Assembly (NCBI GenBank): GCA_963664435.2
Contig: CAXXKM010000003.1
Coordinates: 1,632,001-1,696,000 of the forward strand
Direction: 5' to 3'
Origin: Longimicrobiales bacterium
GTDB lineage: Bacteria; Gemmatimonadota; Gemmatimonadetes; Longimicrobiales; Gaopeijiaceae
Length of the DNA: 64,000 nucleotides
Positions 36,147 through 51,001 of the stretch are shown piece after piece; within the stretch, counting starts at the first letter, position 1, and every line of letters begins with the position of its first letter. The position numbers were made by a program, and so were the translations under genes. A model generated the notes under the pieces. It ran no database searches. It was not told the origin of the DNA and worked only from the letters and a program-made list of their open reading frames with translations.

Positions 36147-36578
36147 CTACGCCCGCAACTTCCTCGATCCGAACCACACGCCCACGACGCCGATCACCGG
36201 GTTGAGCCACGAGACCCATGCCGGCTGCCGGGCGCCCGCGGTCGCCTCCATCATCGACACGTCGTCGGGGCGCGGCCCGGCCGCCATCTCCATCGGCATA
36301 AGCGCGGCTACCACCCCGAGCACGATCACGATGGCGATCAGAATCGTGGCGGCCCTGGCATCGTGCGCCACCCTGGCACAGACTCGGCCGCCGATGTACG
36401 CGGCCACGAGCCCAAGCACGATCGAGCCGAGCGCCCAGCCGCCAGATACCTCCCACGAACCCGGCTGGAAGGCGCGCGAGGGCCCCAGCGTCAGCCAGAG
36501 AAGCGAGAAGAGTGCGAAGAGCGCGGCGGCCATGGCAATGTAGCCGACGATGGCGGCGAGGATGTTCCTGAGCATCAT
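36147..36578 (-). CDS. Small four-TM hypothetical membrane protein
   Basis: MMLRNILAAIVGY...; AGGAG RBS; four hydrophobic segments. Confidence 0.75.
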   Translation of the reverse strand: MMLRNILAAIVGYIAMAAALFALFSLLWLTLGPSRAFQPGSWEVSGGWALGSIVLGLVAAYIGGRVCARVAHDARAATILIAIVIVLGVVAALMPMEMAAGPRPDDVSMMEATAGARQPAWVSWLNPVIGVVGVWFGSRKLRA

Positions 36579-36679
36579 GTTTCTCCTGAGAGCGTTTTGA
36601 AGCTGTGGATGTGGCAAAATGACGGACGACCGCCGTGGGCCCCGAGGAGAGATCCGGGTCGCCGCCGCGTTCCCCCGGG

Positions 36680-38113
36680 TCAATACCGCCCGAGCCGTTC
36701 CCGATAGGAGAGCACCTCCTTCCTCAGTACGGGCGCGAGCAGGTACAGCCCCAGGAGATTGGGAATCGCGACCACGTAGATCATGGCGTCCGAGAGGTCG
36801 ATCAGCGCGGCGAGATTGATGCTGGCGCCAAGGACGACGAAGCCGCAGAAGAACAGTTTGAAGCCCGCCTCCACCGACCGGTGCTCGCCGGTGAGGTAGG
36901 TGAGCGCCTTCAGGCCGTAGTAGCTCCACGAAATCATGGTCGAGAAGGCGAACAGCACCGCGGCGACGGAGAGCGGCACGGGCGACCAGGAGAGCGTGCT
37001 CTCGAAGGCCGTCTTGGTCATCTCGATGCCGTTGATACCCGCATCGGCCAGCGCGGGATCGTAGACCGTGGTGATGATGACCAGCGCCGTCATCGTGCAG
37101 ATGACCACGGTGTCGATGAACGGCTCGAGCAGGCTGACGAAGCCTTCCGTGCACGGTTCGTCGGTCTGCACCGCCGAGTGGGCGATGGCGGCGGAGCCGA
37201 GGCCGGCCTCGTTCGAGAAGACCGCGCGCCGGAATCCGATGATCATGACCCCGATCATGCCGCCGCCGACGCTCTCCGGCGAGAAGGCGCCCTGCCAGAT
37301 CTGGACGATGGCGGCGGGCAGCCGGTCGGCGTTGATGCCGATGATCGCCAGGGCGGAGAGCACGTAGAGCACCGCCATGAAGGGGACCAGCTTCGAGGTC
37401 ACCCGCGCGATGCTCTTGATCCCTCCGACGATGACCATCGCCACGGCGACGGCCATGAATACGCCCAGCAGCCAGGCCTTGTCGCTGAAGAAGCTGCCTC
37501 CGGCGCCCGTGACTTCGATCAGGATGGCGGCGGCCTGGTTGGACTGGAACATGTTGCCGATGCCGAGACAACCGAACACCATGGCGGCGGCGTAGAACAT
37601 TCCCAGGCCGCGGCCGACCCGGGGCAGGTTCCGCAGCTCGAGGCCGCGCTGCAGGTAGTACATGGGACCGCCGCTGACGGAGCCCTCCGGGTTGGTGTGA
37701 CGGTATTTCACCGCCAGCGTGCACTCGGCGAACTTGGTGCTCATTCCGAGCAGGCCGGCGATGATCAGCCACAGCGTGGCACCGGGCCCGCCCAGCGAGA
37801 TCGCAACCGCCACCCCCGCGATGTTCCCGATGCCGACCGTGCCCGACACGGCGGTGGCGAGCGCCTGGAAGGGCGTGACCTCGCCCGGCTGCGAAGGATC
37901 GGTGTAGCGGCCCCTGACCAGGTCCAGCGCGTGCTTGAAGCCGCGCACGTTGATGAAGCGCAGGTACAGGGTGAAGAACACGCCGCCGGCGATGAGCCAC
38001 GCCACGATGAGGGGCACCTGGGCGCCGGCGATGGGCACGGCGTAGAAGATGAAGCCGGCGACCGCGTCCGTGACCGGCTGCATGTACTCGTTGATGAGTT
38101 CGTCGAAACCCAT
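36680..38113 (-). CDS. Alanine/glycine:cation symporter (AGCS family)
   Basis: FQALATAVSGTVGIGNIAGVA, GGPMYY, FSNEAGLGSAAIAH, PFIDTVVIC, FAFSTMISWSYYG. Confidence 0.93.
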   Translation of the reverse strand: MGFDELINEYMQPVTDAVAGFIFYAVPIAGAQVPLIVAWLIAGGVFFTLYLRFINVRGFKHALDLVRGRYTDPSQPGEVTPFQALATAVSGTVGIGNIAGVAVAISLGGPGATLWLIIAGLLGMSTKFAECTLAVKYRHTNPEGSVSGGPMYYLQRGLELRNLPRVGRGLGMFYAAAMVFGCLGIGNMFQSNQAAAILIEVTGAGGSFFSDKAWLLGVFMAVAVAMVIVGGIKSIARVTSKLVPFMAVLYVLSALAIIGINADRLPAAIVQIWQGAFSPESVGGGMIGVMIIGFRRAVFSNEAGLGSAAIAHSAVQTDEPCTEGFVSLLEPFIDTVVICTMTALVIITTVYDPALADAGINGIEMTKTAFESTLSWSPVPLSVAAVLFAFSTMISWSYYGLKALTYLTGEHRSVEAGFKLFFCGFVVLGASINLAALIDLSDAMIYVVAIPNLLGLYLLAPVLRKEVLSYRERLGRY

Positions 38114-38156
38114 GGAGGGCGTCCTTGCCTGGGGTGAGGGGGGGGGGCCGACCGGG

Positions 38157-48990: not shown

Positions 48991-49127
48991 GTCCAGCCTC
49001 TCCAGTCGGCCGGCCCTGCCGGAGCCGCCGATGCCTGTGTGAGTCGGGGCCGGCGCGGAAGCACCGGTCCGGATGGGATTCAACGTCCCGGGGATTCATT
49101 CTGCGGGTCCGGGGCCCGGGAGAATGT

Positions 49128-49157
49128 AGTATGGACGATTCCGCGGTGCTCGCAAAC
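49128..49157 (-). promoter_or_regulatory. Putative sigma-70 promoter for xsc-tpa
   Basis: Minus strand GTTTGCGA-N16-CATACT. Confidence 0.4.
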
Positions 49158-49288
49158 GATGCCGGCGAGGGCCGCGCATGGTGCCGGCGGGGAACCGGCC
49201 CGGCAGACTCGACCGCAGCTTGACGGGACGCAACGCCGGGGCGTACGCTGCCCGGACACTCGTCCCCTTGATAGACGTGGAGAGAGTA

Positions 49289-51001
49289 ATGACCAGGTCG
49301 AACCAACCCCTCGTCGTTGTCGCGGTCGCCCTTGTCGCCAGCGTGGCCGCCTGCAGCCAGGATGCCGGCCCGCCCGCGGACACGATCTTCCACGGCGACA
49401 ACATCGTCACCATGGATCCGCAGCAACCCACCGTGGAGGCGGTCGCGGTGCGTGGCGAGACGATCCTCGCCGCCGGATCGATGGACGAGGTGATGGCTCT
49501 TCAGGGATCGTCGACCCGGGTGGTGGAACTGGGCGACAACGCCCTCCTGCCGGGGTTCATCGACTCGCACGGCCACTTCCTGGGCGCGGGCCGCGACCAG
49601 ACCTCCCTGGGGCTGCACCCGCCGCCGGTGGGCGACGTCAACAACATCGACGACCTCGTGCGCAAGGTGCGGGCGTGGATCGATGAACACGACATCCCTC
49701 CCGGCGAGGCAGTGACCGGGCGCGGCTACGACGACTCGCTGCTCGAGGAGGGCCGGCACCCGACGCGCGAGGATCTCGACCGCGCGTCGACCGAGCACCC
49801 CATCGTCCTCATGCACGTGTCGGGCCACCTGACCACGACCAACTCCGCCGCTCTCGAAGTCAGCAACATCACCGCCGACACGCCCGACCCGCCCGGCGGA
49901 CATGTGCGCCGCATCGCGGGTTCGATGGAGCCCAACGGCGTGCTGGAGGAGACGGCCCGCGGGCTGCTGGCCATCGACCGCTATGGCACCCCTTCGACGA
50001 TAGAGGAGATGGATGAGCTCATCCGCCGATCCATCGACGTGTACCTGAGCCACGGCACGACCACCATCCAGGACGGCGGGACCGCTTCGGAGCAGGCGGA
50101 CATGTTCCGGGAGGCGGCGGCCCGGGAGCCATTCAAGGCCGACGTCGCGGCTTTCGTCCGCAATCGCGCCATGCCCAACGAGGTCCCGGACGTGCCCTAC
50201 ACGCGCGGATACGAAAACGGCTTCCGCGTGGCCGGGGTGAAGCTCATGCTCGACGGCTCCCCCCAGGGGCGCACAGCCTGGGTCACGATTCCGTACGAGG
50301 AGGGACCGCCGGGCGCCCCGCCGGACTATGTTGCGTACGGCGTCATGGACCCCGCCGTTTACAAGGCGCAGGCGGACCAGCTGATCGAGGCGGGCATCCC
50401 CATCATCGTGCACGCCAACGGCGACGCGGCCATGGACCTGATGATCGACGGGGTGGACGAGGCGGTCGCCGACATGGATCCCATGCCCGACCACCGTTCC
50501 GTCATCATCCACGCCCAGCTCATGCGCGCAGACCAGCTGGACCGGTCAGCGGAGCTCAACATTGTGCCCTCGTTCTTCGCGGCACACGCCTTCTTCTGGG
50601 GCGACTGGCACCGGATCAGCTTCGGCGAGGATCGGGGCAACAACACCAGCCCGATGGGCTGGGCCCTGGAGCGGGGGGTGAACTTCACCATCCACAACGA
50701 CGCCTCGGTGGTCCCGCCGCACATGATGCGCCTGGTGTCGATCGCCGTGAACCGCAAGACCCGCAGCGGGCACATCCTCGGGCCGCACCAGCGGCTGACG
50801 GTGATGCAGGCGCTGCACGCGGTGACCCTCGGGGGCGCCTACCAGTACTTCGAGGAGGACACCAAGGGCTCGATCACGGTCGGCAAGCAGGCCGACCTGG
50901 TGATCCTGGACGAGAACCCGCTGACCGCGGACCCGGAGAACCTGGAGTTCATCCCGATCCTGGAGACGTTCTCGCGGGGCAGGTCGGTATTCGCCATGTA
51001 G
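49289..51001 (+). CDS. Amidohydrolase_3 (YtcJ-like) lipoprotein, paralog
   Basis: Lipobox VAAC; PGFIDSHGH, HVSGH, KLMLDGSPQG, VHANGD, IIHAQ, GSITVGKQADLV. Confidence 0.9.
   Translation: MTRSNQPLVVVAVALVASVAACSQDAGPPADTIFHGDNIVTMDPQQPTVEAVAVRGETILAAGSMDEVMALQGSSTRVVELGDNALLPGFIDSHGHFLGAGRDQTSLGLHPPPVGDVNNIDDLVRKVRAWIDEHDIPPGEAVTGRGYDDSLLEEGRHPTREDLDRASTEHPIVLMHVSGHLTTTNSAALEVSNITADTPDPPGGHVRRIAGSMEPNGVLEETARGLLAIDRYGTPSTIEEMDELIRRSIDVYLSHGTTTIQDGGTASEQADMFREAAAREPFKADVAAFVRNRAMPNEVPDVPYTRGYENGFRVAGVKLMLDGSPQGRTAWVTIPYEEGPPGAPPDYVAYGVMDPAVYKAQADQLIEAGIPIIVHANGDAAMDLMIDGVDEAVADMDPMPDHRSVIIHAQLMRADQLDRSAELNIVPSFFAAHAFFWGDWHRISFGEDRGNNTSPMGWALERGVNFTIHNDASVVPPHMMRLVSIAVNRKTRSGHILGPHQRLTVMQALHAVTLGGAYQYFEEDTKGSITVGKQADLVILDENPLTADPENLEFIPILETFSRGRSVFAM

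What the first reader, a model, noticed from the sequence alone, without database searches (positions are those of the whole stretch)
36147..51001. Taurine-catabolism locus built like a PUL: xsc-tpa-amidohydrolase-SusC-SusD-pta-AGCS symporter
Seen: eight co-oriented minus-strand genes (xsc, tpa, lipoprotein amidohydrolase, SusC, SusD, pta, AGCS symporter, 4-TM protein) with a second lipoprotein amidohydrolase divergent from xsc. Established: Tpa converts taurine + pyruvate to sulfoacetaldehyde + alanine, Xsc gives acetyl-phosphate + sulfite, Pta gives acetyl-CoA; characterised clusters use TauABC or TRAP uptake, neither of which is in this window. Inference: free taurine should not need a SusCD receptor, so the locus may import taurine conjugates (N-acyl/N-acetyl-taurine, taurine peptides), hydrolyse them with the surface/periplasmic amidohydrolases and pass taurine to Tpa/Xsc. 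I do not know of a described SusCD-linked sulfonate locus.
Basis: partly seen in the sequence, partly recalled or inferred. Interest (0 to 1): 0.85.

Follow-up and report, generated by a model that had tools for sequence, protein, structure and literature searches.

The report
SusC/D importer for taurine conjugates
A marine Gemmatimonadota bacterium carries a Bacteroides-style outer-membrane importer (SusC/SusD) inside its taurine-degrading gene cluster, beside two enzymes that keep the taurine-gripping residues of the gut's metal-dependent bile salt hydrolases, so it likely captures bulky acyl-taurine compounds and strips off the taurine to eat it, which would be an undescribed use of this importer type.

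Summary
In detail: xsc, tpa, amidohydrolase A, susC, susD, pta, an AGCS symporter and a small membrane gene lie on the minus strand, with amidohydrolase B divergent.

Both amidohydrolases keep all 11 positions that two 2026 preprints assign to metal binding, catalysis and sulfonate binding in taurine-selective metal-dependent bile salt hydrolases (mBSH). The genome's four other full-length Amidohydro_3 paralogues do not.

The SusC/D pair is intact in 13 of 16 informative same-genus relatives. Outside the genus, orthologues (59-68% identity) sit beside taurine genes or the motif hydrolase in four further gene orders. None of 138 more distant SusD loci does.

Best reading (about 0.65): outer-membrane capture of bulky N-acyl-taurines, hydrolysis outside the cytoplasm, taurine import by the AGCS carrier, then Tpa-Xsc-Pta. 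Cargo and activity are inferred, not shown.

Against: the motif also occurs in many hydrolases with no taurine context; identity to an mBSH-list proxy is only 33-37%; one relative keeps SusCD without an intact hydrolase in the locus.

My literature searches found no SusCD-sulfonate locus. The scan had noted related ideas elsewhere (mBSH-like island, SusCD-BCCT cassette), not this locus.

The parts
47260..48990 (-). xsc, sulfoacetaldehyde acetyltransferase (576 aa)
   Evidence: TIGR03457 739 bits, over the 676 cut-off; start read
45793..47187 (-). tpa, class III aminotransferase, likely taurine:pyruvate aminotransferase (464 aa)
   Evidence: PF00202; PRK07678 496 against 488; next to xsc in nearly all loci that carry the close Xsc orthologue
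43985..45712 (-). Amidohydrolase A: Amidohydro_3 protein with a lipoprotein-like signal (Cys25) and the mBSH-type site (H98, H100, K322, H378, H410, D474; S181, H183, Q330, N380, H435); 575 aa
   Evidence: model pLDDT 88.7, top Foldseek hits 3IGH and 3ICJ
40521..43613 (-). susC, SusC/RagA TonB-dependent transporter (about 1030 aa)
   Evidence: TIGR04056 430 against 368; GTG start read
39221..40504 (-). susD, SusD/RagB lid protein with a lipoprotein-like signal (427 aa), member of a SusD clade mostly found beside sulfonate genes
   Evidence: PF07980; fold; tree
38157..39146 (-). pta, phosphate acetyltransferase (329 aa)
   Evidence: PF01515 322 bits; TIGR00651 294, under the 311 cut-off
36680..38113 (-). 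AGCS-family Na+/amino-acid symporter (477 aa), candidate inner-membrane taurine carrier
   Evidence: TIGR00835, PF01235; homologue of AgcS 6CSE; travels with xsc-tpa across genera
36147..36578 (-). 143-aa hydrophobic hypothetical protein; follows the cluster in the genus, not seen with it outside
49289..51001 (+). Amidohydrolase B: divergent Amidohydro_3 protein with a lipoprotein-like signal and the mBSH-type site (H94, H96, K318, H375, H408, D471; S178, H180, Q326, N377, H433); 570 aa, 44% identical to A
   Evidence: orthologues at 66-84% beside xsc/tpa in other genera

Best explanation
The locus joins a SusC/SusD importer, two exported metal amidohydrolases, an AGCS symporter and the Tpa-Xsc-Pta genes, and it likely works as a taurine-conjugate utilisation unit in which a bulky N-acyl-taurine is captured at the outer membrane and hydrolysed before the taurine is imported and degraded.

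Steps:
1. SusD binds, and SusC imports, an amphiphilic taurine amide (fatty-acyl, isoprenoid-acyl or steroid-acyl) into the periplasm. Inferred from co-conservation.
2. Membrane-anchored amidohydrolases A and B cleave the amide at a two-metal site while Ser/Gln/Asn/His hold the sulfonate. The residues are shown; the activity is inferred from mBSH. A is usually lost together with SusCD and would handle the SusCD cargo; B stays with xsc-tpa.
3. The AGCS symporter carries taurine across the inner membrane. Inferred; the family is known for alanine and glycine.
4. Tpa gives sulfoacetaldehyde plus alanine, Xsc gives acetyl phosphate plus sulfite, Pta gives acetyl-CoA. Established pathway; gene identity is shown for xsc and pta and likely for tpa.
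5. Alanine dehydrogenase and a SoxC-like sulfite dehydrogenase encoded elsewhere in the genome would recycle pyruvate and remove sulfite. Homologues were found; the role is inferred.
For: Motifs. The mutagenesis primers of PMC13081988 place S144, Q290 and N337 in H-x-S-G-H, D-G-S-x-Q-G and H-x-N-G-D. Both window enzymes have these motifs. Their spacing to the fourth residue (His) is 149/50/55 and 148/51/56, against 146/47/56 in Beduini mBSH. All 11 positions are kept, whereas the four other full-length paralogues keep at most one of the four sulfonate residues.

Genus. SusC/D is intact after tpa in 13 of 16 informative relatives. Three losses have different junctions, remove or break A and susC together, and spare tpa and pta.

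Outside the genus, SusD orthologues occur as:
- susD-xsc-tpa-AH-AH (L088);
- AH / gntR-susC-susD-agcS (L171);
- a roughly 40-kb island ald-sulP-qmo-apr-sat / xsc-tpa-malate synthase-susC-susD...agcS-tauE-cuyA-like / three motif hydrolases (G437);
- AH-susC-susD-agcS-xsc-tpa / AH (G821; found through the AGCS search);

Sister SusD group. It lies near xsc-pta-tauE, sat-apr-qmo, or ald-AH-agcS-tpa in 3 of 3 genomes of genus g39. Both groups form one clade (100/99).

Control. 0 of 138 other SusD loci (80 of them at least 9 kb) carry xsc, tpa, the AGCS or a motif hydrolase.

An unrelated SusD (24% identity) in Spirosoma oryzicola heads susC-susD-motif hydrolase-LLM monooxygenase-permease-cytochrome c-soxC.
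Against: The motif is not specific to taurine neighbourhoods. All 8 distant homologues aligned keep the 11 positions, and 7 of the 8 have no taurine genes nearby. None of 11 amidohydrolase-B homologue loci from 10 of 301 genomes in the phylum of a Bacteroidota-labelled genome showed a SusC/D pair or taurine genes; this was read from ORF lists, with Pfam run on only 12 neighbours.

Identity to a Clostridium butyricum protein that matches an entry of the mBSH homologue table is only 37% (A) and 33% (B), below the authors' 40% line.

G006 keeps susC-susD but lacks A and has a frameshifted B. G439 has the SusD orthologue (64%) with no xsc and no B orthologue found.

By the strict flag only 3 of the 10 clade loci outside the genus score. 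Four of the others are contigs under 6.2 kb, one is G439, and two have the sulfur genes beyond the flank or outside the query set.

Several relatives have agcS-xsc-tpa with no SusCD in the stretch fetched. Within-genus synteny also preserves unrelated neighbours (dmpA, DUF6503).
Confidence: 0.65

Rival explanations
1. SusC/D is a high-affinity importer of free taurine or other small sulfonates (cysteate, DHPS, isethionate). The amidohydrolases act separately on conjugates that enter by other routes or are cut at the surface.
For: G006 keeps SusCD with no intact motif hydrolase in the locus. Orthologue loci also hold a CuyA-like lyase, TauE and a histidinol-dehydrogenase-family gene. The sister SusD in G168 and G350 lies near sat-apr-qmo or xsc without a motif hydrolase close by.
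Against: Relatives that lost SusCD keep agcS-xsc-tpa, so taurine use does not appear to need it. A motif hydrolase accompanies the orthologous SusCD in all five positive cases outside the genus. Taurine (125 Da) is normally expected to pass general porins (own knowledge).
Confidence: 0.15
2. The amidohydrolases and SusCD handle taurine-containing peptides or small amides (N-acetyltaurine, glutamyl-taurine, cysteate- or homotaurine-type amides) rather than lipid-like conjugates.
For: The nearest outgroup SusDs lie beside serine hydrolases and a D-aminoacylase-like protein, that is amide or peptide processing (L175, L087). A DmpA aminopeptidase lies 1 kb beyond the cluster. RagAB shows that SusCD pairs can carry peptides (PDB title).
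Against: Characterised mBSHs were reported to act uniquely on taurine bile-acid amides when N-acetyltaurine was among the substrates tested. BwBSH1 cleaves other N-acyl taurines only less efficiently.
Confidence: 0.12
3. The SusCD pair and the hydrolases are a generic amide-scavenging module of unrelated cargo that became linked to xsc-tpa once and was inherited or transferred as a block.
For: About 15 SusC-like genes in the genome. The motif is widespread without taurine context. G439 has the SusD orthologue without xsc. Marine Gemmatimonadota appear to exchange this region.
Against: The link survives in at least five different gene orders and in a sister SusD group 45-48% identical to this one. 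None of 138 control loci shows it. The hydrolases keep residues shown by mutagenesis to matter for taurine-amide turnover.
Confidence: 0.08

Closest known systems
Metal-dependent bile salt hydrolases: mBSH of Turicibacter faecis and Beduini massiliensis (PMC13081988) and metalloBSH BwBSH1/2 of Bilophila wadsworthia (bioRxiv 10.64898/2026.04.05.716592)
   Same: Amidohydro_3 fold closest to 3ICJ/3IGH; same metal ligands, bridging Lys, auxiliary His and Ser/Gln/Asn/His sulfonate set; co-occurrence with tpa/xsc. BwBSH is exported and comes as paired paralogues feeding taurine catabolism.
   Different: Those are gut enzymes assayed on bile salts. These have lipoprotein-like signals and 570-575 aa (no BwBSH C-terminal domain), are 33-37% identical to an mBSH-list proxy, belong to a marine Gemmatimonadota, and are linked to a SusC/D importer, which I did not find mentioned in the parts of either paper that I read.
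Tpa-Xsc-Pta taurine dissimilation with TauABC or TRAP uptake (Ruegeria pomeroyi, PMC4334477; sponge symbiont Ca. Taurinisymbion ianthellae, PMC10356861)
   Same: Same cytoplasmic enzymes. Relatives add sat-aprAB-qmo for sulfite, as Ca. Taurinisymbion does.
   Different: No TauA was found in this genome. An AGCS symporter is the co-conserved carrier, and an outer-membrane SusC/D plus exported hydrolases precede the pathway.
N-acetyltaurine system naa (NaaS amidohydrolase with an ABC transporter in R. pomeroyi; PMC4334477 table; Denger 2011 seen only as a reference)
   Same: Logic: a taurine amide is taken up, hydrolysed by an amidohydrolase and passed to taurine catabolism.
   Different: naa uses an ABC transporter, not SusCD or AGCS, and a small acetyl amide. 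Homology of NaaS to these enzymes was not tested.
SusC/SusD utilisation loci (PULs) of Bacteroidota and Gemmatimonadota (PMC10469786); peptide-importing RagAB
   Same: Tandem susC-susD with exported hydrolases and an inner-membrane carrier.
   Different: No glycan-active family among the nine genes and no sensor-regulator in this locus. The downstream pathway is sulfonate catabolism. PMC10469786 treats Gemmatimonadota susCD as PUL markers and has 0 occurrences of 'taurine' or 'sulfonate'.

Membership tests
mBSH / metalloBSH | Amidohydro_3 (PF07969) domain with a 3ICJ-like fold | tested here: met
   PF07969 361 and 308 bits; 3ICJ/3IGH are the best PDB sequence hits of B and the best Foldseek hits of the model of A
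mBSH / metalloBSH | Metal ligands (H69, H71, H345, H376, D440 in Nsfd numbering) and bridging Lys | tested here: met
   A: H98, H100, K322, H378, H410, D474; B: H94, H96, K318, H375, H408, D471. Equivalence is by spacing and alignment, not by direct alignment to Nsfd.
mBSH / metalloBSH | Sulfonate residues S144, Q290, N337, H393 (Beduini) and the auxiliary His (H196 in BwBSH1) | tested here: met
   Motif context of S, Q and N read from the paper's mutagenesis primers; present in A and B. H393 is matched by spacing only.
mBSH (Turicibacter cluster) | At least 40% identity, or E < 1e-150, to T. faecis mBSH | tested here: inconclusive
The proxy (C. butyricum WP_058372208, matching Table S3 entry MGYG000000014_03847 by eye) gives 37% and 33%, E about 1e-105 and 1e-109 pairwise, which is below the line.
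metalloBSH (Bilophila cluster) | About 945 aa with an extra C-terminal domain; mostly Desulfovibrionaceae | tested here: not met
   A is 575 aa and B is 570 aa, single domain
mBSH / metalloBSH | [quoted passage not shown] | not testable with these tools
   Needs an enzyme assay
Polysaccharide utilisation locus | Tandem susC-susD | tested here: met
   TIGR04056 over cut-off; PF07980; SusD fold; 16-bp gap between the genes
Polysaccharide utilisation locus | Carbohydrate-active enzymes in the locus | tested here: not met
   No glycoside hydrolase, lyase or carbohydrate esterase Pfam family among the nine genes or their neighbours from 26.5 to 59 kb. A CAZy-specific library was not available.
Tpa-Xsc-Pta taurine pathway | Xsc | tested here: met
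   TIGR03457 739 against 676
Tpa-Xsc-Pta taurine pathway | Taurine:pyruvate aminotransferase | tested here: inconclusive
   PRK07678 over cut-off and adjacent to xsc. No Tpa-specific model was hit; that Tpa belongs to this subfamily is recalled.
Tpa-Xsc-Pta taurine pathway | Pta | tested here: met
   PF01515 322 bits; TIGR00651 just under its cut-off
Tpa-Xsc-Pta taurine pathway | TauABC or taurine TRAP uptake in the cluster | tested here: not met
   No TIGR01729 match in the 96%-complete genome; four DctP genes, all on another contig, substrate unknown
naa N-acetyltaurine system | NaaS-type amidohydrolase with NaaABC | not tested
   NaaS sequence not obtained; no ABC transporter in the locus

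The most novel reading that the evidence does not exclude
A dedicated clade of SusC/D transporters in Gemmatimonadota imports animal- or plankton-made acyl-taurine lipids. The broad 'mBSH motif' clade of Amidohydro_3 enzymes is then an environmental taurine-amide hydrolase family, of which gut bile salt hydrolases are one branch. SusCD-led sulfonate-utilisation loci would have arisen at least twice (Gemmatimonadota with Tpa-Xsc; Spirosoma with an LLM monooxygenase and SoxC), and AGCS carriers would be a new taurine transporter type.
Probability: 0.45. Interest if true: 0.85.

Novelty: new variant of a known kind. Interest (0 to 1): 0.72.

Why it matters
SusC/D counts are used as markers of polysaccharide use, including in this phylum (PMC10469786). 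A sulfonate-amide cargo would widen what these transporters do and would mean that such counts mislead.

Taurine is a measured currency between sponges and their symbionts (PMC10356861), but known uptake is of the free amino acid by TauABC. This locus predicts that conjugated taurine is a separate resource, and it supplies a binding protein and two soluble-domain enzymes with which to fish for the natural compounds.

It also gives the newly found metal-dependent bile salt hydrolases a likely role outside the gut, and names a candidate taurine transporter of a family not known for it.

Tried and rejected
RNA evidence is not used as support. Contigs of four sponge metatranscriptome runs (two studies) from relatives about 90-93% identical cover the locus and bridge xsc-tpa, susC-susD, susD-pta and pta-agcS. 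A neighbouring 19-kb stretch was covered as well, contigs give no strand or level, and DNA carry-over is not excluded.

The promoter and terminator scan gave nothing above chance: 0 promoters against 1.2 expected, 8 terminators against 5.6 +/- 2.7.

The SusD model (pLDDT 75.6) confirms the fold, but the likely binding loops (residues 88-107) are low confidence, so no ligand inference was drawn. The AGCS alignment to 6CSE shows the family core and does not tell alanine from taurine.

The 143-aa membrane protein as a sulfite exporter has no support: no TauE or other Pfam hit, and unnamed Atlas neighbours. One split TauE-like match lies elsewhere in the genome.

A general SusCD-sulfonate locus in Bacteroidota was not found beyond Spirosoma. 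The Hymenobacter SusD relative has a metalloprotease, a permease and an LLM gene but no motif hydrolase annotated.

The R. pomeroyi, Cupriavidus, Leisingera, Shewanella, Ruegeria TM1040, Streptomyces and C. butyricum plasmid homologues have no taurine genes beside them.

Equal longest-contig lengths for P0087/P0165 and P0096/P0144 hint at two more hydrolase-SusD pairs, but carry no accession and were not counted.

The profile search of protein representatives with amidohydrolase A never returned, so the reach of that subfamily is open. No complex prediction was run.

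
Full report
Observation. On the minus strand lie xsc (47260-48990), tpa (45793-47187), amidohydrolase A (43985-45712), susC (40521-43613), susD (39221-40504), pta (38157-39146), an AGCS symporter (36680-38113) and a 143-aa membrane hypothetical (36147-36578). Amidohydrolase B (49289-51001) is divergent. Xsc, SusC and AGCS pass curated NCBIfam cut-offs, the aminotransferase passes the PRK07678 subfamily cut-off, and Pta falls just short of TIGR00651 but matches PF01515 strongly. 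The SusD model matches SusD/RagB structures. Records of same-genus relatives are titled Longimicrobiales or Gemmatimonadetes, and some Gammaproteobacteria, so this is a Gemmatimonadota genome. Relatives at about 90-93% DNA identity occur in sponge RNA libraries, so a sponge-associated life is inferred, not shown for this genome.

Why the window alone proves little. The genome has roughly 15 SusC-like genes and 6 full-length Amidohydro_3 paralogues, and a second SusC/D pair sits at 28.2-32.5 kb. None of the four other paralogues lies next to a SusC/D pair (positions). No TauA was found. Four DctP genes, four TauD-family genes, an alanine dehydrogenase (65% to a relative's) and a SoxC-like sulfite dehydrogenase (56% to the Spirosoma one) lie elsewhere; sat, aprA and qmo were not found with the queries used.

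The amidohydrolases. Two April 2026 preprints describe Amidohydro_3 enzymes that hydrolyse taurine-conjugated bile acids. Of PMC13081988 I read the abstract, results, discussion, computational methods, legends, two of four parts of supplement 1 and the first part of supplement 2. Of bioRxiv 10.64898/2026.04.05.716592 I read parts 1-5 of 11 and search passages. I did not see its supplements, which hold the list of other N-acyl taurines cleaved and the short hydrolases H2-H11, and these bear on substrate range. Both papers assign sulfonate recognition to Ser, Gln, Asn and His; the first shows reduced activity on Ala substitution of S144, Q290 and N337. Its primers place these in H-x-S-G-H, D-G-S-x-Q-G and H-x-N-G-D. 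A and B have all three motifs, the fourth His at matching spacing, and the metal ligands, bridging Lys and auxiliary His: 11 of 11 positions. The four other paralogues keep at most one of the four sulfonate residues. Of the 120 listed homologues of B, 118 keep all four motifs. The model of A (pLDDT 88.7) is closest to 3IGH/3ICJ, the structure both papers use as a comparison. The limit: 8 of 8 distant homologues from plasmid records also keep the 11 positions, and only the Spirosoma one has sulfur genes beside it. The motif therefore marks a broad clade whose non-gut members are unassayed. Identity to a C. butyricum protein that matches an entry of the mBSH homologue table by eye is 37% (A) and 33% (B), under the authors' 40% line. 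So these work like mBSH at the active site, but I do not file them as members.

Conservation in the genus. Xsc passes its cut-off in 17 of 18 same-genus relatives; the miss is 67% complete. Of those 17, one contig ends inside tpa. Among the other 16, susC-susD follows tpa intact in 13 (one runs off the contig end, one has an N gap), is eroded in G001 and G009 and is absent in G007. The three losses have different junctions, also remove or truncate A, and leave tpa and pta. B is present in all 17. G006 is the exception against the model: it keeps susC-susD, lacks A and has a frameshift in B at the Gln motif, which could be real or an assembly error. Unrelated neighbours (dmpA, DUF6503) are also conserved, so this synteny is weak evidence on its own.

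Conservation beyond the genus. Xsc is rare in the phylum: 25 of 401 genomes. A SusD search gave a group at 59-72% identity, well above the 40-50% background. Six such loci outside the genus came back at 59-66%. L088 reads susD-xsc-tpa-hydrolase (72% to B)-start of a second hydrolase. L171 reads hydrolase (70%) / gntR-susC-susD-agcS-hisD-family gene, with xsc-tpa on another contig. L174 is part of a roughly 40-kb island in G437 with ald, a sulfate permease, qmo-apr-sat, xsc, tpa, malate synthase, susC, susD, an AGCS, tauE, a CuyA-like lyase (370 bits, under the 450 cut-off) and three motif hydrolases, one of them split in two frames. L173 (G439) has none, and that genome gave no xsc or B orthologue. 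L084 and L085 are 5-6 kb contigs without taurine genes. An AGCS search added G821: hydrolase-susC-susD-agcS-xsc-tpa / hydrolase. An NCBI record has the B and SusD orthologues six accession numbers apart.

The sister group and the control. In a 47-row tree these SusDs and a group from genus g39 form one clade (17 rows, 100/99; rows were chosen by me, and G821 was not included). The g39 SusCDs lie about 10 kb from xsc with tauE and pta between (G350), directly beside sat-aprA-qmo (G168), or 11-22 kb from ald, a motif hydrolase, the AGCS and tpa (G371). A second, long-branch copy in G371 has no such neighbours. By a fixed tblastn flag, 12 of 12 genus loci, 3 of 10 clade loci and 0 of 138 other SusD loci (80 of them 9 kb or longer) carry xsc, tpa, the AGCS or a motif hydrolase. 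Kin are not independent and no statistic is claimed; the point is that the link survives reshuffling. G208, flagged unpublished, is only counted in that call's tally.

The core without SusCD. G024, G402, G806, G825 and 8 of 9 loci of genus g79 have agcS with xsc (usually tpa too), with B in G024, G402, G825 and 2 of the 9, and no SusCD in the stretch fetched; several contigs are short. The AGCS is thus the steadiest partner of xsc-tpa and the natural candidate for taurine entry; alanine transport remains possible.

A second origin. A Spirosoma oryzicola plasmid has susC-susD-motif hydrolase-LLM monooxygenase (SsuD-like, under the cut-off)-APC permease-cytochrome c-soxC, with a SusD only 24% identical to this one. 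It is a single case: 11 other loci from 10 of 301 genomes in the phylum of a Bacteroidota-labelled genome showed no such context.

Mechanism. Most likely (0.65): SusD/SusC capture a bulky acyl-taurine, membrane-anchored A and B release taurine outside the cytoplasm, the AGCS imports it, and Tpa-Xsc-Pta yield alanine, sulfite and acetyl-CoA. Shown: genes, residues, co-conservation. Inferred: cargo, activity, location, carrier specificity. Bulky rather than acetyl, because mBSHs were reported to act uniquely on taurine bile-acid amides with N-acetyltaurine in the panel, and BwBSH1 cleaves other N-acyl taurines less well. Marine taurine amides exist: I saw only search listings for tunicate stolonines, a crinoid phenylacetyl-taurine and copepod grazer cues; that copepodamides and some sponge lipids are acyl-taurines is recalled. 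Rivals are free-sulfonate import (0.15), small or peptidic amides (0.12) and incidental linkage (0.08).

Novelty. Searches for SusC/SusD with taurine or sulfonate, Gemmatimonadota with SusCD or taurine, mBSH papers, AGCS with taurine and non-glycan SusCD cargo returned no description of such a locus. Passages read in PMC10947273, PMC10469786, PMC4334477, PMC10356861, PMC11905757 and bioRxiv 2024.12.10.627767 do not describe one. The library lacks most subscription papers, so this is not proof of absence. Every part belongs to a known family; the combination is new as far as I could find. I rate it a new variant of a known kind, interest 0.72.

Noticed in passing
L054-L061, L063 (genus g79, family f7) against window 47260-48990: Xsc is 89-95%, Tpa 87-89% and the AGCS 80-90% identical in genus g79, which shares only the class with this genome, while an isocitrate/isopropylmalate dehydrogenase control is 64-65%. 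This suggests recent transfer of the agcS-xsc-tpa block. g79 appears to be Ca. Palauibacter (source name on P0042). G002 holds both arrangements (L041, L008).
   Followed up: partly
L243:5163-16136 (Spirosoma oryzicola plasmid NZ_CP089541.1): susC-susD-mBSH-motif amidohydrolase-LLM monooxygenase-APC permease-cytochrome c-soxC: an apparently independent SusCD sulfonate-amide operon in a cultured strain.
   Followed up: partly
L248, L174, L249 (G437:C7 about 930-976 kb): A roughly 40-kb organosulfonate island with reverse sat-apr-qmo, a sulfate permease, xsc-tpa, malate synthase, a GcvT/DAO oxidoreductase, a CuyA-like lyase, two AGCS genes and five Amidohydro_3 genes.
   Followed up: partly
L034 (G001), flipped coordinates 9620-10909: A deletion leaves the N-terminal part of SusC running into SusD. 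P0125 (434 aa, carboxypeptidase-regulatory domains plus SusD) looks like such a fusion product.
   Followed up: no
L052, L066, L068 (genus g39): Marine Gemmatimonadota with sat-aprA-qmoAB next to xsc or to the sister SusCD; G350 has two distinct xsc genes and a DctP beside one of them.
   Followed up: partly
window 28191-32485, 26577-28001, 18488-21421: A second SusC/D pair followed by a DUF1552 gene, with a DUF1592/1588 (PSD) gene further on. The same PSD-DUF1552-ankyrin set sits between xsc and pta in G350 and beside a SusCD in G371.
   Followed up: no
window 33986-36020 and 51041-53012: Flanking genes conserved in much of the genus: a DmpA-family aminopeptidase, a hydratase/decarboxylase-like gene, a CapA/PGA_cap metallophosphoesterase and DUF6503. 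They were not seen with the cluster outside the genus.
   Followed up: partly
window about 14500-15143: Very deep RNA-contig coverage (up to about 100,000) in an intergenic stretch, as expected of an abundant structural RNA; not identified.
   Followed up: no
window 54824-59017: A large Ig-like plus leucine-rich-repeat protein, of the eukaryote-like repeat type often reported in sponge symbionts (recalled).
   Followed up: no
L121 and L234: A different SusC/D locus (40% SusD) with two non-motif amidohydrolases, serine hydrolases, a class III aminotransferase, an aldehyde dehydrogenase and a TauE-family gene: another non-glycan SusCD locus of unknown amide cargo.
   Followed up: no
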